This document shows, one piece after another, positions 2,940 through 37,120 of a stretch of DNA of 38,116 nucleotides (the stretch's first letter is position 1; every line of letters begins with the position of its first letter). The stretch is from a virus (taxonomy: Duplodnaviria > Heunggongvirae > Uroviricota > Caudoviricetes). The notes beneath the pieces are model-generated. The model did not search any database, was not told the DNA's origin, and saw nothing but the letters and a program-made list of their open reading frames with translations. The stretch is from the IMG/VR virus record IMGVR_UViG_2541047893_000008, one strand, 5' to 3'. The translations under genes were made by a program, and so were the position numbers.

Positions 2940-3182
2940 ATGGGCAAAGAATATAAAACTCTCATTAACAAAGCACTTGAGCGTTTTTATTTTCGCTTAA
3001 GTGCATCAGGCGCTCATGCTGAACGTGCGGCCCGTGACTCATTGACCAGAGCAATCCGAAGTCTGTATGACGTGGCTTTTTACGCTGATGATCTGGATGC
3101 ACTTAACGAACTTTCCGAGCTGATCTGTGCCGCAGAGTGCGGGGAACATATTGAACCGTATAAGCTGGGGAATATCGCATGA
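2940..3182 (+). CDS. Hypothetical early protein (80 aa)
   Basis: ATG at 2940 in track ORF 2937..3182; stop overlaps the next small ORF. Confidence 0.55.
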   Translation: MGKEYKTLINKALERFYFRLSASGAHAERAARDSLTRAIRSLYDVAFYADDLDALNELSELICAAECGEHIEPYKLGNIA

Positions 3183-4119: not shown

Positions 4120-4441
4120 GAAACCAGAACATGCACACACAAAAAAACCGCTTGCCATGCCGCAATCAGTCAGGTTACATTTCCGCTGCACCTCACAAAA
4201 CGGGTGCCGGGTTTCGCAGCCTGCTGACTACACAAGCGCACAACCGCGCCAGCGTTTTTTTTGTGCGTACTGTATTGCCACGTTTTTTTCGCGTCAGAAT
4301 TATGGCGGGGCGTACGGGGCCGACTTCGGTCGGGCCGGGTTCTTGTGTAGCCGGTACTGCGAACCTCGTACGTCTCGCCACCCACAGTTTCGCAGCTCTG
4401 GATGGTGAGTTTTCACAACTTACTACACAAGGGGCCACACC

Positions 4442-8015: not shown

Positions 8016-8975
8016 ATGAAAATTTGTATCGACGACGGCTCCACCAACATCAAGCTGGCATGGACTGAGAATGGCGAACGCCGCAACGCCATCAGCCCGA
8101 ACAGCTTCAAGTCGGAATGGTCTGCGCCGTTCGGTGGCATGCAGCCCGCGAACTACATGCTTGATGGCGTGCGCTATGGTTTTGATCCGGTCAGCGATCG
8201 CTTTGTCCAGACGACCGACACGCAATACCAGTACAGCGATGTGAATGTAATCGCCATTCATCACGCGCTGGTCAAATCAGGCATCACGCCACAAGAGGTG
8301 GATGTGGTTGTCACCCTGCCACTGAGCGAGTATTTCGAGACAAACGCACAGCCGGACATGGCCAACATCAACCGCAAAAAAGCGAACGTTATGCGCTCGG
8401 TGGAGTACCAGAACGGCGAAGCATTCACTATCCGTAACGTGCGGGTTATGCCTGAATCCATTCCGGCTGGCTTTAAAGCACTGGCTGACATGAGTCCGTT
8501 TGAATCCCTGCTGATTGTGGATTTAGGCGGAACCACGCTGGATGTGGCAAAGGTTCAAGGGCAACTGGCAGGTATCAGCCAGGTGTTTTGCGATCCACAC
8601 GTAGGCGTTTCCCTGATGGCCGATGCCGTACTGTCGGTGATGGCCACTAACGGTATGCGCACCAGTCACCACATCGCCAATACCATTATCGAACATCGCC
8701 ATGATGAAGCCTGGCTGCGCCAGCACATCCACAATGACGCGCATTACGCCAGCCTGATGGCGGTTATTCGTGAAAAGGAAGAAACACTGAAACAACGCGT
8801 GATCCGCGCGCTGGCGGTTTTTTCGGGTTACGGGCGGGTGATGGTTGTCGGTGGAGGGGCGGAGATTGTGGCACCCGCTATCCGCGAAGTCTGCGGAGTT
8901 AATGCGACTTTCATCGCGGACGGGGTGCCACAGTTTGCTCTGGTTAATGGGCTGTACGCAATGGACAAGGAGTAA
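8016..8975 (+). CDS. parM: ParM/StbA-like actin-fold partition ATPase
   Basis: 319-aa ORF with actin-fold signatures: phosphate-1 (IDDGSTNIKL), phosphate-2 (IVDLGGTTLDV), adenosine motif (VVGGGAEIV). N-terminus resembles plasmid R1 ParM from memory (MLVFIDDGSTNIKLQW...). RBS AAGGA. Confidence 0.88.
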   Translation: MKICIDDGSTNIKLAWTENGERRNAISPNSFKSEWSAPFGGMQPANYMLDGVRYGFDPVSDRFVQTTDTQYQYSDVNVIAIHHALVKSGITPQEVDVVVTLPLSEYFETNAQPDMANINRKKANVMRSVEYQNGEAFTIRNVRVMPESIPAGFKALADMSPFESLLIVDLGGTTLDVAKVQGQLAGISQVFCDPHVGVSLMADAVLSVMATNGMRTSHHIANTIIEHRHDEAWLRQHIHNDAHYASLMAVIREKEETLKQRVIRALAVFSGYGRVMVVGGGAEIVAPAIREVCGVNATFIADGVPQFALVNGLYAMDKE

Positions 8976-8979
8976 ACCA

Positions 8980-9294
8980 ATGACGACACCAACCAGACGG
9001 ATAAGTTTCTATCTGAAGCCCGCCGCCGTCAAGAGTGAACAGGAGGCGTGCAATTACCTCGATAGCCTGCCAGCCTCCGAACGCAGCCGCGCGCAACGCG
9101 CGGCCTTTCTGGCTGGGCTAGCGCTCATAAAGCGCAACCCAGCATTTGCCTACTGGATGGCCGAATGGCCAGAGGACAACCTCCCCTTCAATACCGTTAG
9201 CATCAAGGAAACATACCAGGATAATCAGCCTAGCGGAGTTGAATGCAATTTTTATAAAATTGCAAAGAATATTCAGACCTTATTCCCAGAATAA
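8980..9294 (+). CDS. parR: ParR/StbB-like small DNA-binding partner (putative ribbon-helix-helix)
   Basis: Small ORF immediately downstream of parM (start 5 nt after the parM stop, RBS AAGGAG). N-terminus RRISFYLKP followed by two helices (EQEACNYLDSL; SERSRAQRAAFLAGLAL) fits the RHH pattern of type II partition adaptors. Assignment is inference from context and pattern. Confidence 0.65.
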   Translation: MTTPTRRISFYLKPAAVKSEQEACNYLDSLPASERSRAQRAAFLAGLALIKRNPAFAYWMAEWPEDNLPFNTVSIKETYQDNQPSGVECNFYKIAKNIQTLFPE

Positions 9295-9377: not shown

Positions 9378-10214
9378 TCATGATGAAATTGCCGAAGTTT
9401 TTTTATCGTGCTGAAGTACCGCAAATGCCATTAAAACCTCAAGAGAATAGCGGCGATAATACTTAACAAAACCATAATAAAATACTCGGGATGCAGCAAT
9501 ACAAAACAAGAGAAGAAAACAAAAAGGTAACAGTCTGATATTTATATCTATTAAAAAGGATAGAAGGAGCAGGAACATAAGCAACCAGACTGAAGCGAGA
9601 AAAACAAATGTAATGTTTCTACAAAAACCATACAAAGCAACATAGTTTTGCATTTTCACCTGATGATTTTTAGAATGTTCATACACATAATGATAAGCAA
9701 GGCGAAAAAGATCGCCCCTCAAGCCCTTACGTCGATATAGCGTAGATAAAACATTTATATAACCATCTCGTATTTGCGGCCAAAAGACTTTAATAAGTAT
9801 AGAATGCAGTGTGGTTTTATGATGTTCTGCTTTATCAAAAGCTGATACAGGAAATAAAAAAACTCCACGAATAAAATTAACTATACTGAACTTAGTATTA
9901 TGTCGTTTTATTTTCAGGGAGCTTCTTTTAGAAAACAGATAAATTGAAGGATACCCAAGTTTACTGTTCATGTATTTTTCAATTAAACAGGATGATAGAA
10001 TAGATATGAAGTGACCTGAAATATATGATAGAACGATTAATACCACATATATAAATACACTTATTATTTCTTTATATTTCAGGATATGGTTAAGAATACC
10101 TTCTATATAAACAGGGTTAATTTCAATAGAAAACAAAAAAAGGATAAACAGGAATAACCCACCTGGAATTAGATAGCCCAAAAAGTCATAAAATGAAAAC
10201 GGATTCTGTGTCAC
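9378..10214 (-). CDS. Polytopic membrane protein of unknown function (278 aa), AT-rich cargo gene
   Basis: Several long hydrophobic segments; codon composition much more AT-rich than the phage backbone; second gene of a two-gene leftward operon; RBS GGGGGAAG. Confidence 0.7.
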   Translation of the reverse strand: MTQNPFSFYDFLGYLIPGGLFLFILFLFSIEINPVYIEGILNHILKYKEIISVFIYVVLIVLSYISGHFISILSSCLIEKYMNSKLGYPSIYLFSKRSSLKIKRHNTKFSIVNFIRGVFLFPVSAFDKAEHHKTTLHSILIKVFWPQIRDGYINVLSTLYRRKGLRGDLFRLAYHYVYEHSKNHQVKMQNYVALYGFCRNITFVFLASVWLLMFLLLLSFLIDINIRLLPFCFLLLFCIAASRVFYYGFVKYYRRYSLEVLMAFAVLQHDKKTSAISS

Positions 10215-10253
10215 ACTTCCCCCTGTGTTACTTGTAAATTAAAGGGTAAAACA

Positions 10254-10751
10254 TTATTTGTTTTTCCGTAAAGGATTAGCTTTCCATCTTCTTACTAACC
10301 ATTCGAATTCTTGATATGTAGTATCCGAATTAATGCTTTCTCTGATTGCTTTAATTAATGGCTCGGCAATATCATATGTCTCTACAACTGTTGTGTAAGA
10401 TGTTCTTTTTATCATTTTTTCATCATAAATACCTTCACGAATACTTACAGCAACTCGCTCGTAAAAATTTAAAATATATTGAAATTTTCGGCGCTCGGCC
10501 ATTTCTTCATCTGTTATTATGCAACCATCACAAGGAAAAACATAAGAACGAAATGATTTGCCTGAACGATGCACTTGTTTCAGGGTATGCAATGACTCTA
10601 TATATTGCATATCTTGCCGACTCTCAAAAAGAAAGTTGGCCGTTTGAGTTTTTTTTGCGGTACGCACATTGTAGATAATGGTTCCAATGGCAACCAAAAC
10701 GCCAAGCAGAACAATAGTATTGCTGATGATTTGTAGTGTTATTGGGTTCAT
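10254..10751 (-). CDS. N-terminally membrane-anchored protein of unknown function (165 aa), AT-rich cargo gene
   Basis: Single N-terminal TM helix (ITLQIISNTIVLLGVLVAIGTIIY) followed by a charged soluble domain; first gene of the two-gene module; no family recognised. Confidence 0.7.
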   Translation of the reverse strand: MNPITLQIISNTIVLLGVLVAIGTIIYNVRTAKKTQTANFLFESRQDMQYIESLHTLKQVHRSGKSFRSYVFPCDGCIITDEEMAERRKFQYILNFYERVAVSIREGIYDEKMIKRTSYTTVVETYDIAEPLIKAIRESINSDTTYQEFEWLVRRWKANPLRKNK

Positions 10752-33457: not shown

Positions 33458-33614
33458 AGCTTCAGCCCCTTGTATCCGTTAAATGATTCGGCAACAATCA
33501 TCACCCACCACGCGCGTAATCTCACCCCTGCGCCGTTCTCCCGACCCGGCGACAACAAAAAGCAGTAACCCCCTCCGCACGCACATGCGACCATGCCGCA
33601 CAGGGAGGGAACAG

Positions 33615-34724
33615 ATGACCGACACCACCATGCAATTGCTCAGTCAGGGCACAGACCCCGTGAAAATGCCGGATTTTGATATTCTCGCGGAGGGTAAAAC
33701 GCTGTCAGGCGTGGCAGAGCGCCTGATGAGCCTGTCACTGACCGACAACCGGGGATTTGAGGCGGACCAGCTCACCATCATGCTGGATGATGCAGATGGT
33801 CAGTTGCAGCTACCGCCACGGGGCGCGCACCTGACGGTTCTCATTGGCTGGAAAGGAGAACCGCTGACAGAAAAAGGCACTTACATTGTTGATGAAATCG
33901 CTCACGAAGGACCGCCGGACAGGCTGACTGTTTCAGCCAGAAGCGCAGATTTTCGGGATGAATTTAACGTTAAACGTGAGGTGTCCTGGCATGATGTGAC
34001 CATTGAGCGTGTGGTATCCGCCATCGCTCATCGGTATGGTCTGAAACCGCAAATCAGCGAAATGCTGATGGATATCGAAATCGACCACGCCGACCAGACC
34101 GAAGAAAGCGACATGTCCTTCCTTACGCGCATGGCGGAAATGCTGGGCGCAATCACCACGGTAAAAAGCGGTAATCTGTTATTCATTATGCCAGGCGGTG
34201 GCGTGAACGCACAGGGCCAGCCGTTGCCATCGTTCGCCATCACGCGCAGCAGTGGCGATCGCCATCAGTTCCGCATTGCTGACCGCGAGGCGTATACGGG
34301 GGTACGCGCTTACTGGCTTGATCTTAATTACGGGAAAAAGAAAAAAGTCAGCGTGAAACGCCGCAAACCGCCAAAACCCAAAAAGGAGAAAAGCAGCAGC
34401 CGTGAAGGTGATTATATGGAAGGCGCGGAAGGCAATGTGTTTGTGTTACGCAAGACTTATCAGAACGAGCAGGCAGCAAGACGCGCAGCGGCGGCAAAGT
34501 GGCAGCAGCTACAACGCGAAGCCGCATCATTCTCCATCACGCTGGCACGTGGTCGTGCAGAACTCTACCCCGAAATGCATGGCACGGTAACAGGATTTAA
34601 AAGCGAGATTGATAATCAGGACTGGATTATTGCAAAAGCCGAGCACACCATCGATAACAGCGGCTTTACCACGCAGCTTGAGCTTGAGGCAAAAATCCCG
34701 GAATGGATAGCAGAAACAGAGTGA
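33615..34724 (+). CDS. D: Tail protein D (late gene D, gpD family)
   Basis: Start at internal ATG (MTDTTMQLL...) preceded by GGGAGGG; blocks (SLTDNRGFEAD, TIMLDDADG, TYIVDEIAHEGPPD, SWHD, FTTQLELE) match P2 D. On the opposite strand to FI-U. Confidence 0.88.
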   Translation: MTDTTMQLLSQGTDPVKMPDFDILAEGKTLSGVAERLMSLSLTDNRGFEADQLTIMLDDADGQLQLPPRGAHLTVLIGWKGEPLTEKGTYIVDEIAHEGPPDRLTVSARSADFRDEFNVKREVSWHDVTIERVVSAIAHRYGLKPQISEMLMDIEIDHADQTEESDMSFLTRMAEMLGAITTVKSGNLLFIMPGGGVNAQGQPLPSFAITRSSGDRHQFRIADREAYTGVRAYWLDLNYGKKKKVSVKRRKPPKPKKEKSSSREGDYMEGAEGNVFVLRKTYQNEQAARRAAAAKWQQLQREAASFSITLARGRAELYPEMHGTVTGFKSEIDNQDWIIAKAEHTIDNSGFTTQLELEAKIPEWIAETE

Positions 34725-34766: not shown

Positions 34767-35027
34767 ATGTTCCGTTGTCCGCTTTGTGGCGCATCTGCCC
34801 GTATCCGCACCAGTCGTCCGGAAAATGATTCAAACACCGTGCGGCAAAAGTATTACCAGTGTAACAACCTGGAATGCGGCGTATGCTTCTCAACACTGGA
34901 AGCTTTCCATAAATTCACATCAAAACACGCCTCCGGTGTTCACTCTTCAGAAGGTATCCCGTGGCATGAGCTGCCAGCTTCACACAGGGGAAACAATCAG
35001 ATGAGTTTGCCTTTATCTCAGAATTAA
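34767..35027 (+). CDS. ogr: Ogr/Delta-family zinc-finger late transcription activator
   Basis: 86 aa; N-terminal MFRCPLCGA...RTSR...YYQCNNLECG with four Cys spaced as in P2 Ogr; last canonical gene before the right end. Confidence 0.8.
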   Translation: MFRCPLCGASARIRTSRPENDSNTVRQKYYQCNNLECGVCFSTLEAFHKFTSKHASGVHSSEGIPWHELPASHRGNNQMSLPLSQN

Positions 35028-35218
35028 CAGGCAGAATTGCCGGAGTAACAAAAAAGCGATAGATTACGCGCGGGTGCCTTTCGGCTGATGGTCGGAGGGA
35101 ATACCCGAAGGCCAGATGTGGAAAGGCCCCGGAAAACATTTCTGTTTAACCGAGGCCCTAACATATCTACCTTAAGCAAGTGATAGGTTAGCGCCTCTCC
35201 AACAAAGGAGCAAGCGCT

Positions 35219-35359
35219 ATGTCGCAAAAATCGCTTACGGCCATCACGTTCTGCGTGACGGTAATCCTCATCATCTGGATGCTGCACGGTTCGCTGTGTG
35301 AAATACGGATGAGCTTTTGGGGAGCGGAGTTTGCGGCGTTCTTACAGTGTAAGCAGTAA
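35219..35359 (+). CDS. Hok/Gef-family-like small membrane toxin (candidate type I toxin)
   Basis: 46-aa ORF with RBS AGGAG 7 nt upstream: short N-terminus, one TM helix (AITFCVTVILIIWML), then the SLCEIR motif and EFAAF segment characteristic of Hok/Gef/PndA proteins. Followed by a 9-bp-stem hairpin. Confidence 0.55.
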   Translation: MSQKSLTAITFCVTVILIIWMLHGSLCEIRMSFWGAEFAAFLQCKQ

Positions 35360-35621
35360 GGAAACCGCGACGGGGGAGTAATCCCCCGTCAATCGGTTGC
35401 TAGGGTAAGGTCGATAAGGCACCCTATCTCACAGCTCTAAATGCAAAAATTCCATGAAACTGTGGGATTTTTGCATCACATACTGATACAGACCAGCCCT
35501 TCTATATGCCTCACTCTATACCAGCTAATCAATTGACACTTATCAATAAAAATAAATCTGATAAAATCAAAATGTTTTGTAACAAATATCAACTCGTATT
35601 AATCCAAAGGAGGCGGATTAC

Positions 35622-35954
35622 ATGGCATTAATCAAATGTCCTGAATGCCAGAAAGAGGTGAGCGATTCAGCATTGTATTGCCCTGCTTGTGGTAAACAAC
35701 TGCAAAAACTTAAGCGTTCATTTTTTGGACGGATCATTAAGTGGGTTTTTATATTATTTAATATTTTTATGATCTATACGCTTTTAGTTGGAATAGGAGG
35801 CACTAGTGAAATAATAAATAATGCCACATCCGATGCCGAAAAAGCCGGTGCAGTTATTGGTACAGGCTTAGGTTTAATTACCATTGGAAGCTTATGGGTT
35901 ATTGGCGATATCATTATCGGAATTTTAGTATTTCTTACTAAACCAAAGGGATAA
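35622..35954 (+). CDS. Zinc-ribbon membrane protein (CPxC...CPxCG plus two TM helices), AT-rich cargo
   Basis: 110 aa; N-terminal Cys4 ribbon (CPECQ...CPACG), two hydrophobic helices; strong RBS AAAGGAGG; TTGACA -35-like hexamer about 85 bp upstream; AT-rich. Confidence 0.65.
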   Translation: MALIKCPECQKEVSDSALYCPACGKQLQKLKRSFFGRIIKWVFILFNIFMIYTLLVGIGGTSEIINNATSDAEKAGAVIGTGLGLITIGSLWVIGDIIIGILVFLTKPKG

Positions 35955-35958
35955 TAAA

Positions 35959-36852
35959 ATGAAAAATATAATTTTTTCTATAGGTGCATCATTTATATCA
36001 ATTAGTGTACTGCCTGTTCACGCAGCAACTGAACATAAGAACTTCAATGCAGTACTTCAGTGCCGAGCAATAGAAAATAATAAAGACAGACTTTCTTGTT
36101 ACGATAAGTCAATACAACCGACTCGAACGAAAGTTGCTGAAAAATTCGAAAGCAGAGATCAATGCCCTGATGAGAAAGATGATGATAGACGTTTATCTTG
36201 TTATGATCGTTTCTTTTCTCCAACATTTACTCCATCTGTAAACTCAAAATCTAAAACGGAAAAGCCAGTAACAACAGAGGCTCAGCAACCAAATCTTTCT
36301 GAGATATCTAAATGTCGTGCAGAAAATGATAAAGAAGCCAGACTAAACTGCTACGATAAACTATTCCCACAGGATAAAATCGCTCAAGCTGAATCAAAAT
36401 TAGAGAAAGCCACAGATGTAGGAAAATGGCACACATCCATTACTACATCGCCAATTGATGATTCGAAAAATGTAATTTTATCGTTAGAAAGTGATGATTA
36501 TATCAGAACTCCATTTGGAGAAGCGGTTACTCCTACTCTTTTTATAGCTTGCCGAGAAAAGAAAACCGAAGTATTTCTTAGTTGGGATGTATATTTAGGC
36601 CTTGAACAAACCAGCATGCTTTATCGCCTTGATAAACAGAAAGCAGTTGAGCGAAACTGGCTAGTATCTACAGATACAAAGGCTGTTTTTTATAAAGGTA
36701 ATGACATTGATTTCATCCGAAAACTAGCCAACTCAAGCAAAATGTATACAAAAATAACGCCTTATAATGAGAGCCCCGTAAGTGCAACTTTCAATTTAAA
36801 CGGCCTGTCAAACGCGCTAAAACCGCTTCAAGCTGCTTGTAACTGGAAATAG
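35959..36852 (+). CDS. Secreted/periplasmic protein with three Cys-containing repeats, AT-rich cargo
   Basis: 297 aa; signal peptide (MKNIIFSIGASFISISVLPVHA); three copies of a roughly 35-aa motif C-x7-9-(D/E)xRL(S/N)CYD(K/R)-x-F; start 4 nt after the zinc-ribbon gene stop. Confidence 0.7.
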   Translation: MKNIIFSIGASFISISVLPVHAATEHKNFNAVLQCRAIENNKDRLSCYDKSIQPTRTKVAEKFESRDQCPDEKDDDRRLSCYDRFFSPTFTPSVNSKSKTEKPVTTEAQQPNLSEISKCRAENDKEARLNCYDKLFPQDKIAQAESKLEKATDVGKWHTSITTSPIDDSKNVILSLESDDYIRTPFGEAVTPTLFIACREKKTEVFLSWDVYLGLEQTSMLYRLDKQKAVERNWLVSTDTKAVFYKGNDIDFIRKLANSSKMYTKITPYNESPVSATFNLNGLSNALKPLQAACNWK

Positions 36853-36882
36853 TATTAAATCATGTGGCTTAGCCACAATCAC

Positions 36883-36922
36883 AGATAACACAAAGCCCGT
36901 GAAAACGGGCTTTGTGTTATCT
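36883..36922. terminator. Strong terminator-like palindrome (17-bp perfect stem) closing the right-end cargo operon
   Basis: agataacacaaagcccg-tgaaaa-cgggctttgtgttatct, 30 bp after the stop of the 297-aa gene and 14 bp before the attR core. Confidence 0.6.
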
Positions 36923-36935
36923 GTAACTCGAAAAT

Positions 36936-36954
36936 GTGGTCACTGCGTGGACAC
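36936..36954. repeat. attR core (direct repeat of attL core)
   Basis: 18/19 identity with 11-29, located after the last prophage cargo gene and a strong terminator hairpin, before the host flk-like gene. Confidence 0.6.
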
Positions 36955-37120
36955 GCGCTGACATAAATCCTTTTACATCAATAAATTAAGTCATCATTTT
37001 TTTCATCAACAAGGATTTTCACGTTTGTGTTACCTGTATGAGACGAGAGTTAACCAGACAAGTGTGCCATAATCTCGCGGCCAGGCATACTTGCGAAGAT
37101 TTCAGGTATAAGGATACGTA

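What the first reader, a model, noticed from the sequence alone, without database searches (positions are those of the whole stretch)
35028..35400. Hok/Gef-like type I toxin ORF between ogr and the right-end cargo
The 46-aa ORF has the architecture and signature (TM helix, then SLCEIR and an EFAAF-like segment) of Hok-family toxins, a strong RBS, a structured 190-nt leader with several hairpins, and a stable 3-prime hairpin (cgacggggga-gtaa-tcccccgtc), as expected for a hok/sok-type locus. Such loci stabilise mobile elements and have been reported to protect against phage. No antisense RNA can be assigned from sequence alone.
Basis: partly seen in the sequence, partly recalled or inferred. Interest (0 to 1): 0.55.

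Follow-up and report, generated by a model that had tools for sequence, protein, structure and literature searches.

The report
Known Hok/Sok toxin–antitoxin module in prophage
The small ORF is a genuine, already catalogued Hok-family membrane toxin with its antisense-RNA antidote, carried near the right end of a P2-like E. coli prophage; it is an ordinary, widespread element.

Summary
ORF 35219-35359 (+) encodes a 46-aa Hok/Gef peptide (Pfam PF01848 above its threshold). It sits in a ~355-nt hok-type mRNA (35072 to ~35424) whose 5' end (tac) pairs with its 3' end (fbi). Compensatory changes in 13 homologues support this fold. By homology with sokW and sokC, a ~58-nt antisense Sok gene can be placed on the minus strand (about 35178 to 35121), with a promoter overlapping the hok ribosome-binding site. 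It lies inside a P88-like (P2-family) prophage inserted between pdxB and flk (attR 37000-37019), just before a variable cargo slot. The same DNA occurs in 1545 of 5426 complete E. coli genomes, annotated "Hok/Gef family protein", and in P88-like and Stx2a phages. The exact peptide appears in a 2025-26 Hok catalogue, whose text implies that a one-residue variant was toxic. The one departure from the plasmid R1 model is that no conserved mok leader ORF exists. Novelty is low.

The parts
35037..35065 (+). Putative hok promoter: -35 TTGCCG (35037-35042), 17-nt spacer, -10 TAGATT (35060-35065). The inferred transcription start is about 35072.
   Evidence: Read from the sequence. The -10 (TAGATT/TAGAAT/TAGAGT) is kept in 11 of 13 homologues, and conservation begins abruptly at GGGTGCC just downstream. 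It occupies the same position as the hokC and hokW promoters. It matches 8 of 12 consensus positions, so the generic scan, which needs 9, did not call it.
35072..35424 (+). hok mRNA body, from the tac element to the fbi element. The transcript probably continues to the hairpin at 35441-35476.
   Evidence: Rfam RF01794 matches 35072-35229 on the + strand: 47.9 bits, E = 4.8e-9, below the gathering score of 59. That model is in the hok-mRNA sense orientation. Global fold -161.3 kcal/mol, z = -8.0. In 13 homologues, sequence conservation starts and stops at these two ends.
35072..35086 (+). tac element (5' GGGUGCCUUUCGGCU).
   Evidence: Pairs with 35409-35424 in the minimum-energy and centroid folds. 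The RNAalifold helix has 12 pairs, 3 of them with changes on both sides in 4 sequences. On its own, the 5' 64 nt forms a tac/ucb-like hairpin instead, with GGG(U)GCCUUU paired to AAAGGCCCC at 35121-35129; -35.1 kcal/mol, 94% of the ensemble.
35120..35178 (-). Predicted Sok antisense RNA, about 58 nt. The 5' end is near 35178. The hairpin is GGCCUCGG...CCGGGGCC (35157-35125) followed by UUU.
   Evidence: Homologous position and shape to sokC as annotated in K-12 (59 nt) and sokW as annotated in 933W. Folding gives -24.4 kcal/mol, z = -4.5. This is a placement by homology only: no expression data exist and the U-tract is short.
35185..35213 (-). Predicted Sok promoter: -35 TTGCTC (35213-35208), 17-nt spacer, -10 TAACCT (35190-35185).
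   Evidence: The -10 is identical to the hexamer 7 nt upstream of the annotated sokW 5' end in 933W. Mutating the sokW -10 element released HokW toxicity (PMC8621323). AGGTTA/AGGATA is kept in all 13 homologues and the non-coding block 35185-35218 is almost invariant. The generic promoter scan did not call it.
35152..35197 (+). sokT-like target hairpin of the hok leader (GAGGC.CCUAAC ... GGUUAG.GCCUC).
   Evidence: RNAalifold consensus helix of 11 pairs, 96.5% of cells paired, variation on one side only. Local fold -17.6 kcal/mol, z = -3.8.
35191..35217 (+). Small hairpin that sequesters the hok Shine-Dalgarno. A GCGC/GCGC clamp closes it, and anti-SD CUCC (35197-35200) pairs with GGAG (35207-35210) of the SD AAGGAG (35205-35210).
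   Evidence: The pairing is predicted in the full-length, 3'-truncated and Sok-blocked states alike.
35219..35359 (+). hok coding sequence, 46 aa.
   Evidence: Pfam PF01848, 30.1 bits against a gathering score of 22. PHROG 251, E = 2.5e-23. Median dN/dS 0.22 over 11 homologues. The identical peptide is listed in the catalogue of bioRxiv 10.1101/2025.08.07.668861.
35363..35398 (+). Inner stem 35369-35390.
   Evidence: -25.3 kcal/mol, z = -5.2. Five of its 9 pairs show compensatory changes among the homologues. The sequence CGGGGGAGTAATC(C/T)CCCG is shared with hokW.
35409..35424 (+). fbi element (GGUCGA-U-AAGGCACCC), complementary to tac.
   Evidence: It is the last block conserved among all homologues. 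Homology to phage P88 ends about 10 nt later, at roughly 35434.
35441..35476 (+). 15-bp A/U-rich hairpin, a candidate transcription terminator for hok in this prophage variant.
   Evidence: -19.8 kcal/mol, z = -5.1. P88 has a different, classical terminator hairpin at the same relative position. Function is inferred.

Best explanation
This is an intact hok/Sok-type type I toxin-antitoxin module. It belongs to the 46-aa Hok group that the 2025-26 Hok catalogue calls cluster 72. It is carried as an accessory gene between ogr and a variable cargo slot at the right end of a P88-like (P2-family) prophage inserted between pdxB and flk of E. coli.

Shown here: the peptide is a Hok/Gef family member under purifying selection. 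Its mRNA has the family's signature fold, with the 5' tac element paired to the 3' fbi element and an alternative 5' tac/ucb hairpin.

Inferred by homology with R1 hok/sok, hokC/sokC and hokW/sokW: a weak promoter (35037-35065) makes a stable mRNA that is translationally closed. Slow 3' trimming removes fbi and lets the RNA refold into a form that can both be translated and bind Sok. A short-lived ~58-nt Sok RNA, made from the opposite strand (35178 to about 35121), pairs with the leader, and the duplex is destroyed by RNase III. When Sok supply stops, Hok is made and depolarises the inner membrane. Sok supply could stop through loss of the prophage, shut-off of host transcription by an infecting phage, or prophage induction.

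Unlike R1, hokC and hokW, this group has no conserved mok leader ORF. Sok therefore most likely acts through mRNA destruction or structure, not by blocking mok translation.
For: Protein level:
- Pfam HOK_GEF is above its gathering score and PHROG 251 'MokW-like host killing' gives E = 2.5e-23.
- Six of the seven residues that the catalogue reports as conserved across Hok (M1, C16, L30, C31, E32, E41) are kept in most of the subfamily alignment; the T18-equivalent position varies (T, A, V, M) but is T in the window peptide.
- Median dN/dS is 0.22.

RNA level:
- The leader matches the hok-leader model RF01794 at E = 4.8e-9. Its orientation was checked on the K-12 hokC control.
- The global fold closes 5' on 3' with z = -8.0.
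- In 13 homologues from Escherichia, Salmonella, Citrobacter and Klebsiella, 96.5% of pair cells form standard pairs, against about 40% when partners are slid. Twelve pairs have changes on both sides, three of them in tac/fbi.
- The -10 of sokW, the tac sequence, the ucb-like GAAA(A/G)GCCCC box and the 3' hairpin are shared with hokW of 933W.

Distribution and literature:
- Present in 1545 of 5426 complete E. coli genomes and annotated Hok/Gef.
- Present after ogr in five P2-like phage genomes checked (P88, PhiR44_2, 500465-2 and two chromosomal prophages) and matched in further P2-like records.
- The exact peptide is catalogued. The variants 72_1621 (V16A relative to this peptide) and 72_1589 were cloned for toxicity tests and are not among the 3 of 45 reported as non-toxic.
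- hokW-sokW was shown experimentally to be a type I TA system.
Against: - No expression data exist for this locus. Neither promoter reaches the generic sigma-70 scan threshold, and the predicted Sok terminator has only a UUU tract.
- The RF01794 score (47.9) is below Rfam's gathering score (59). The NCBIfam Hok/HokA models are far below their cut-offs.
- Folding predicts the hok SD paired in every state modelled. How Hok gets translated from the native mRNA is therefore not explained.
- The toxicity evidence comes from a preprint, uses an artificial SD, and tested a one-residue variant.
Confidence: 0.88

Rival explanations
1. The module is the same, but its main role is to assist lysis. On SOS induction of the prophage, Sok falls, Hok is made, and Hok helps release phage progeny, as reported for hokW-sokW of the Stx2 prophage Sp5. 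Stabilising the prophage or excluding other phages would not be its main job.
For: hokW-sokW is the closest prophage-borne relative that has been studied functionally. It shares leader and 3' elements with this locus. Deleting it halved Sp5 release after mitomycin C. In the window, hok lies directly after the late-gene activator ogr with no predicted terminator between them, so read-through during lytic growth is conceivable.
Against: The Sp5 effect was modest (two-fold) and was measured in a lambdoid phage. P2-type prophages are classically not SOS-inducible (background knowledge, not tested here). Nothing in the sequence links hok expression to induction.
Confidence: 0.25
2. The module is the same, but its main role is abortive infection. 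An incoming lytic phage shuts off host transcription, the unstable Sok decays, and Hok kills the cell before the phage completes its cycle, as reported for R1 hok/sok against T4.
For: Phage defence by plasmid hok/sok is cited in the hokW paper. The prophage arm just downstream is a variable cargo slot, holding a RES-domain NAD+ phosphorylase in one relative. P2-like prophages are known carriers of defence cargo (background knowledge).
Against: PADLOC has no model that matches. The large Hok survey found hok not enriched near defence systems (section heading). No infection data exist for this group.
Confidence: 0.2
3. The locus is a translationally silent relic. Having lost mok, Hok is never made from the native mRNA, and the locus persists only by hitch-hiking on a successful prophage.
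For: There is no mok start codon, and an in-frame TAG sits at 35189. In R1, mok translation up to the hok SD is mandatory. The SD is predicted to be paired in all modelled conformers. Several chromosomal hok loci of K-12 are known to be inactivated; the hokC locus fetched here, for example, abuts IS186.
Against: The peptide is under purifying selection, with median dN/dS 0.22. The RNA structure keeps compensatory changes across four genera. The promoters, tac, fbi and SD are all intact. The mok-less layout is shared by all 13 diverged homologues, so it is not a recent lesion.
Confidence: 0.08

Closest known systems
Hok 'cluster 72' of Escalera-Maurer et al., bioRxiv 10.1101/2025.08.07.668861
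   Same: The identical 46-aa peptide is in their supplementary alignment (id 1628). The cluster is labelled HAC in their table, which I read as 'high-abundance cluster'. Two members were cloned for toxicity tests: 72_1621, which differs from the window peptide by V16A, and 72_1589, the Stx2a-phage form. Neither is among the three non-toxic constructs named in the text.
   Different: No difference at the peptide level. That study deliberately did not analyse Mok, Sok or mRNA ends, and it does not describe the P2-like ogr-attR location.
hokW-sokW of Stx2 prophages Sp5 / 933W (PMC8621323; GenBank AF125520)
   Same: It is prophage-borne. It shares the tac GGGTGC, the GAAA(A/G)GCCCC box, the AGGTTAG block that holds the sok -10 (TAACCT), and the 3' hairpin CGGGGGAGTAATC(C/T)CCCG. 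It has been shown experimentally to be a type I TA system that partly depends on RNase III and Hfq.
   Different: HokW is 51 aa; no direct HokW comparison was run, but the related HokC is only 27% identical to this peptide over 33 residues. hokW has an in-frame mokW leader ORF, which the window locus lacks. hokW sits in a lambdoid phage, not after ogr of a P2-like phage. A separate copy 83% identical to the window locus is also found in Stx2a phage records.
hok/sok (parB) of plasmid R1
   Same: Same logic and the same named RNA elements: tac/fbi closure, a tac/ucb alternative, an antisense RNA whose promoter overlaps the hok translation-initiation region, and a small membrane toxin with the LCE motif.
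   Different: R1 needs translation of the 70-codon mok up to the hok SD, and no mok exists here. The toxin is 46 aa instead of 52. The locus is chromosomal and prophage-borne and is rare on plasmids, occurring in 35 of 72,556 records. There is no detectable nucleotide similarity to R1-type loci in that search.
Chromosomal hokC(gef)/mokC/sokC of E. coli K-12
   Same: The leader is homologous. Both hit RF01794 in the same orientation and over the full model length. The annotated 59-nt sokC has the same position and hairpin shape as the predicted Sok.
   Different: hokC scores 118 bits against RF01794, this locus 47.9. hokC has mokC in frame. The K-12 locus abuts an IS186 copy at its 3' side, whereas the window locus is complete.

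Membership tests
Hok/Gef toxin family (Pfam PF01848) | Match to the family HMM above the curated gathering score | tested here: met
   30.1 bits against a gathering score of 22, residues 7-44 on profile positions 5-42 of 42. PHROG 251 E = 2.5e-23.
Hok/Gef toxin family (Pfam PF01848) | A peptide of about 50 aa with an N-terminal hydrophobic helix and the conserved residues M1, C16, T18, L30-C31-E32 and E41 (R1 numbering) | tested here: met
   The window peptide has M1, C12, T14, L26-C27-E28 and E37 at the aligned positions. The conserved set is as reported.
Hok/Gef toxin family (Pfam PF01848) | NCBIfam Hok subfamily (NF007279) or HokA equivalog (NF007290) above the curated cut-off | tested here: not met
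   23.6 bits against 73, and 35.8 against 89. This is a divergent subgroup and not an orthologue of HokA-E.
Hok/Gef toxin family (Pfam PF01848) | Toxic to the cell when expressed | not testable with these tools
   Literature only. A one-residue variant (72_1621) and the Stx2a-phage variant (72_1589) are not among the 3 non-toxic constructs of 45 tested.
hok/sok type I TA locus (R1 parB paradigm) | Leader homologous to known hok mRNA leaders (Rfam RF01794) at the gathering score | tested here: inconclusive
   47.9 bits is below the gathering score of 59, but E = 4.8e-9, the match covers the full model 1-157, and strand and position are correct. The K-12 hokC control scores 118 bits.
hok/sok type I TA locus (R1 parB paradigm) | Long-range pairing of the mRNA 5' end (tac) with the 3' end (fbi) | tested here: met
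   15 pairs in the minimum-energy fold. The consensus helix of 12 pairs has 3 compensatory pairs.
hok/sok type I TA locus (R1 parB paradigm) | Alternative pairing of tac with an upstream complementary box, giving a metastable or active fold | tested here: met
   The 5' 64 nt folds as GGG(U)GCCUUU paired with AAAGGCCCC; -35.1 kcal/mol, 94% of the ensemble, z = -4.8. This is the same helix as in the RF01794 consensus. It is a prediction only.
hok/sok type I TA locus (R1 parB paradigm) | A cis-encoded antisense Sok RNA with its own promoter and terminator hairpin, complementary to the leader | tested here: inconclusive
   The homologous -10 TAACCT and a plausible -35 are conserved in 13 homologues, and a Sok-like hairpin is predicted. 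The generic promoter scan is negative, the U-tract is short, and there are no transcript data.
hok/sok type I TA locus (R1 parB paradigm) | A mok leader ORF that overlaps the hok start and is translationally coupled to it | tested here: not met
   No ATG/GTG/TTG ORF reaches the hok SD in the window. An in-frame TAG sits at 35189. Upstream ORFs differ in start, frame and end among the 13 homologues.
hok/sok type I TA locus (R1 parB paradigm) | 3' processing of the mRNA and RNase III cleavage of the Sok-hok duplex | not testable with these tools
   Known for R1 and partly for hokW. Not assessable from sequence.

The most novel reading that the evidence does not exclude
The 46-aa Hok group (cluster 72) would be a natural mok-less branch of hok/sok. 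Hok would be translated from its own SD without a coupled leader ORF. Sok would control it purely through duplex-triggered decay or a structural effect, not by blocking mok. The module would also be a recurrent unit sitting just inside the attR side of unrelated prophages: P2-like prophages next to at least two different host flanks, a lambdoid prophage, and others. In P88-like phages it travels with a ParM/ParR partition pair, so these phages carry the equivalents of both stability loci of plasmid R1.
Probability: 0.45. Interest if true: 0.3.

Novelty: already known. Interest (0 to 1): 0.15.

Why it matters
It matters little as a discovery. The gene is routinely annotated, the exact peptide is catalogued, and near-identical variants have been reported as toxic. 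The practical value lies in annotation. The locus boundaries, the tac/fbi pairing and a concrete Sok prediction are now given. The module also marks the edge between the conserved P2-type backbone and a variable cargo slot before attR. The absence of mok across this whole subgroup is a modest, testable point about how type I toxins are held in check. If confirmed, it would show that the R1 model of mok-coupled translation does not apply to the whole family.

Tried and rejected
I used an alignment of homologues instead. That returned only 7 loci, three of them from assemblies of unrelated taxa and probably contamination.

2. The generic sigma-70 and terminator scan called neither the hok nor the Sok promoter, and found no plus-strand terminator. 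The promoters are therefore placed by homology only.

3. A search for attL/attR repeats inside the window found nothing, because attL lies about 200 nt left of the window. The junctions were resolved using a complete genome and the K-12 empty site.

4. Candidate mok equivalents were rejected. These were the 31-aa ORF 35088-35183 and the 19-aa ORF 35116-35175. Both end 35 nt or more before the hok ATG, and neither is conserved outside the closest relatives.

5. My idea that Sok binding frees an anti-SD, which then closes the hok SD, was not supported. The SD is predicted to pair with 35197-35200 in the full-length, truncated and Sok-blocked states, and its unpaired probability stays at 0.33.

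6. The CsrC hit at 35279-35400 is noise: 14 bits against a gathering score of 61.

7. PADLOC gave no hit for Hok or for the two cargo proteins.

8. A literature search for statements that some hok loci lack mok found nothing. Searches combining hok with P2-like, ogr or Fels-2 found no description of this location.

Full report
**What is in the sequence**

It has an ATG start and encodes 46 aa, MSQKSLTAITFCVTVILIIWMLHGSLCEIRMSFWGAEFAAFLQCKQ. AAGGAG lies at 35205-35210, 8 nt before the ATG. The hairpin cgacggggga-gtaa-tcccccgtc is at 35368-35390. With its outer stem it folds at -25.3 kcal/mol, z = -5.2. Upstream are gpD (33483-34724) and an Ogr/Delta zinc-finger gene (34767-35027). Downstream are a zinc-ribbon membrane protein (35622-35954), a VasI/TagO-like protein (35959-36852) and flk (37121 onward).

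**Identity of the peptide**

- It passes Pfam HOK_GEF with 30.1 bits against a gathering score of 22.
- It matches PHROG 251 'MokW-like host killing' at E = 2.5e-23.
- It falls well below the NCBIfam HokA and Hok cut-offs. It is only 27% identical to K-12 HokC over 33 residues. It is therefore a divergent Hok subgroup.
- A database search found a tight family of 46-aa proteins in Escherichia, Shigella, Salmonella and Klebsiella, all named Hok/Gef.
- Across 11 diverged homologues the median dN/dS is 0.22, so the peptide is under purifying selection.

**The mRNA**

- Rfam's RF01794 matches 35072-35229 on the plus strand over the full model (47.9 bits, E = 4.8e-9), below the gathering score of 59.
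- The family is named 'sok', but a control on K-12 hokC shows that the model lies in the sense orientation of the hok mRNA leader. There the hit is on the hokC strand, at 118 bits, while the annotated sokC is on the opposite strand.
- The RNA 35072-35428 folds at -161.3 kcal/mol, against -115.3 +/- 5.7 for shuffles (z = -8.0). The whole molecule is closed by pairing of GGGUGCCUUUCGGCU (35072-35086) with GGUCGA-U-AAGGCACCC (35409-35424). This is the tac/fbi arrangement that defines hok mRNAs.
- I aligned 13 homologous loci: the window, a Stx2a phage, E. albertii, S. enterica (several loci), S. diarizonae, C. braakii and K. oxytoca. Conservation begins exactly at GGGTGCC and ends exactly at GGCACCC.
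- RNAalifold recovers the tac/fbi helix, the target hairpin 35152-35197, a helix between the start-codon region and the AEFAAF-coding region, and the 3' hairpin.
- On that structure 96.5% of pair cells form standard pairs, against 38-44% when partners are slid by 1-3 columns. Twelve pairs show changes on both sides, three in tac/fbi and five in the 3' hairpin.
- The 5' 64 nt alone form a tac/ucb-like hairpin at -35.1 kcal/mol, 94% of the ensemble. This corresponds to the alternative fold of the R1 model.
- A promoter fits upstream: TTGCCG, 17 nt, TAGATT at 35037-35065, with the start at about 35072. The -10 is conserved in 11 of 13 homologues and aligns with the hokC and hokW promoters. It is too weak for the generic scan to call.
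- A 15-bp hairpin at 35441-35476 may terminate the transcript. P88 has a classical terminator at the same place.

**The antisense RNA**

By homology it can be placed.

- Phage 933W (hokW/mokW/sokW; the locus studied experimentally in Sp5, PMC8621323) shares with the window the block TAGGTTAGC. Its reverse complement contains TAACCT, which lies 7 nt upstream of the annotated sokW 5' end.
- Mutating the sokW -10 element released HokW toxicity.
- In the window, TAACCT is at 35190-35185 on the minus strand. TTGCTC lies 17 nt upstream (35213-35208) and overlaps the hok SD, as the sok promoter does in R1.
- Transcription from about 35178 would give a 58-nt RNA with an unpaired 5' tail and the hairpin GGCCUCGG...CCGGGGCC followed by UUU (-24.4 kcal/mol, z = -4.5). 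This is very like the 59-nt sokC.
- The plus-strand block 35185-35218 is non-coding yet nearly invariant in all 13 homologues. That fits a double constraint, from the Sok promoter on one strand and the hok SD on the other.
- This remains a prediction. There are no transcript data and the U-tract is short.

**What is missing: mok**

In R1, hokC and hokW, a leader ORF (mok) starts in the Sok target and reads into hok. In R1 its translation up to the hok SD is mandatory. The window differs.

- There is no ATG/GTG/TTG where mokC and mokW start.
- The hok frame is closed by a TAG at 35189. The other two frames have no start codon before hok.
- The two upstream ORFs (35088-35183 and 35116-35175) stop at least 35 nt before the hok ATG.
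- Upstream ORFs differ in start, frame and end across the 13 homologues.

The whole subgroup therefore lacks a conserved mok. I tested one possible substitute mechanism, in which Sok binding would free an anti-SD that closes the SD. Folding does not support it. How translation is licensed is open. Sok-triggered RNase III decay needs no mok and is the most economical inference.

**Genomic setting**

- The window is a P88-like (Xuanwuvirus, P2-family) prophage. It begins inside the integrase gene.
- In the complete genome of strain AH21F008, which matches the tested stretches around this locus (window 35028-36000) at 100% identity, the prophage lies between pdxB and flk.
- Comparison with the K-12 empty site gives a 20-bp att core, TTTTCATCAACAAGGATTTT. 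This is attR at window 37000-37019, and it overlaps the pdxB start codon.
- The zinc-ribbon and TagO-like genes are therefore inside the prophage.
- Homology to P88 stops at about 35434, about 10 nt after fbi. Relatives carry other genes in this slot: a RES-domain NAD+ phosphorylase in strain Eco889, and a different small ORF in P88.

**Distribution and prior knowledge**

- The 423-nt region matches 1545 of 5426 complete E. coli genomes, with 1 to 7 copies per genome, and is annotated 'Hok/Gef family protein'.
- It is 95-97% identical in P88, Chuche, P884B11, PhiR44_2, 500465-2 and Citrobacter phage Shae_phiSM, and 83% identical in many Stx2a phages.
- It is rare on plasmids, occurring in 35 of 72,556 records.
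- A 2025-26 preprint (10.1101/2025.08.07.668861) catalogues 32,532 hok loci and reports enrichment in prophages. It lists this exact peptide.
- That study cloned a V16A variant and the Stx2a-phage variant for toxicity tests. Only three other constructs of the 45 were reported as non-toxic. The study explicitly left Mok and Sok unanalysed.

**Verdict**

The element is an ordinary member of a well-known family that is already annotated and catalogued. The increments from this analysis are the true extent of the locus (35037 to at least 35424), a concrete Sok prediction, covariation support for the hok mRNA fold in this subgroup, the absence of mok, and the placement of attR. The biological role (prophage addiction, abortive infection, or lysis aid as for hokW) cannot be decided from sequence.

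Noticed in passing
window 8016-9294 (+): The prophage carries a ParM (StbA_N plus ParM C-terminal domain, E = 1e-81) and ParR/StbB-like (Plasmid_stab_B, E = 7e-29) partition pair between the replication gene and the portal gene. With hok/sok, the prophage therefore holds equivalents of both stability loci of plasmid R1 (parA, which is parMRC, and parB, which is hok/sok). The pair is also present in P88, PhiR44_2, P884B11, Chuche and Shae_phiSM, which also carry this hok.
   Followed up: partly
window 4188-4385 (+): There are two Rfam hits above their gathering scores in the early region of the prophage: isrK Hfq-binding RNA (57.5 bits) and C4 antisense RNA (83.2 bits). They lie next to an 'ash family' pseudogene in the RefSeq annotation of the strain AH21F008 prophage, which lies at the same site.
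   Followed up: no
window 35435-37019: This is a variable cargo slot between the end of hok/sok and attR (core TTTTCATCAACAAGGATTTT at 37000-37019, overlapping the pdxB start). Here it holds a zinc-ribbon membrane protein and a VasI/TagO-like protein with three cysteine-containing repeats. Strain Eco889 has an extra RES-family NAD+ phosphorylase, and P88 has a different small ORF. None of them hits PADLOC.
   Followed up: partly
L017, L018/L019, L020/L021, L022/L023 (hok at about 3001-3141 in each): In other genomes the same hok group is the last gene before host flanking genes, in quite different elements. These are a P2-like prophage next to ihfA/pheT, a lambdoid tail-fibre end next to fieF/pfkA, and a Phd/Fic island next to ppiD/hupB/lon. 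In Salmonella it also occurs as two tandem copies about 490 nt apart.
   Followed up: partly
L020:2837-3000: One Salmonella copy, at the lambdoid prophage end near fieF, lacks the GGGTGCCTT tac element and the -10 box but keeps the ORF, the fbi element and the Sok region. It may be a 5'-truncated, deregulated or dead copy.
   Followed up: no
window 9378-10751 (-): A DUF4760 protein and a 278-aa protein with no Pfam hit lie on the opposite strand between parR and the portal gene. This is roughly the position where P2 carries old/tin, so they could be defence cargo.
   Followed up: no
L010, L011, L014: Hok loci that are identical or near-identical at the protein level to the E. coli one turn up in assemblies labelled Planococcaceae MAG, Vagococcus sp. 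and Xanthomonas pisi. These are most likely enterobacterial contamination of those assemblies.
   Followed up: no
L001:52-2936: In strain 2014C-3011 the hok/sok region is 100% identical to the window, but in that copy of the prophage the gpD gene is broken by nested IS30 and IS3 insertions. The hok/sok module thus persists in a crippled prophage.
   Followed up: no
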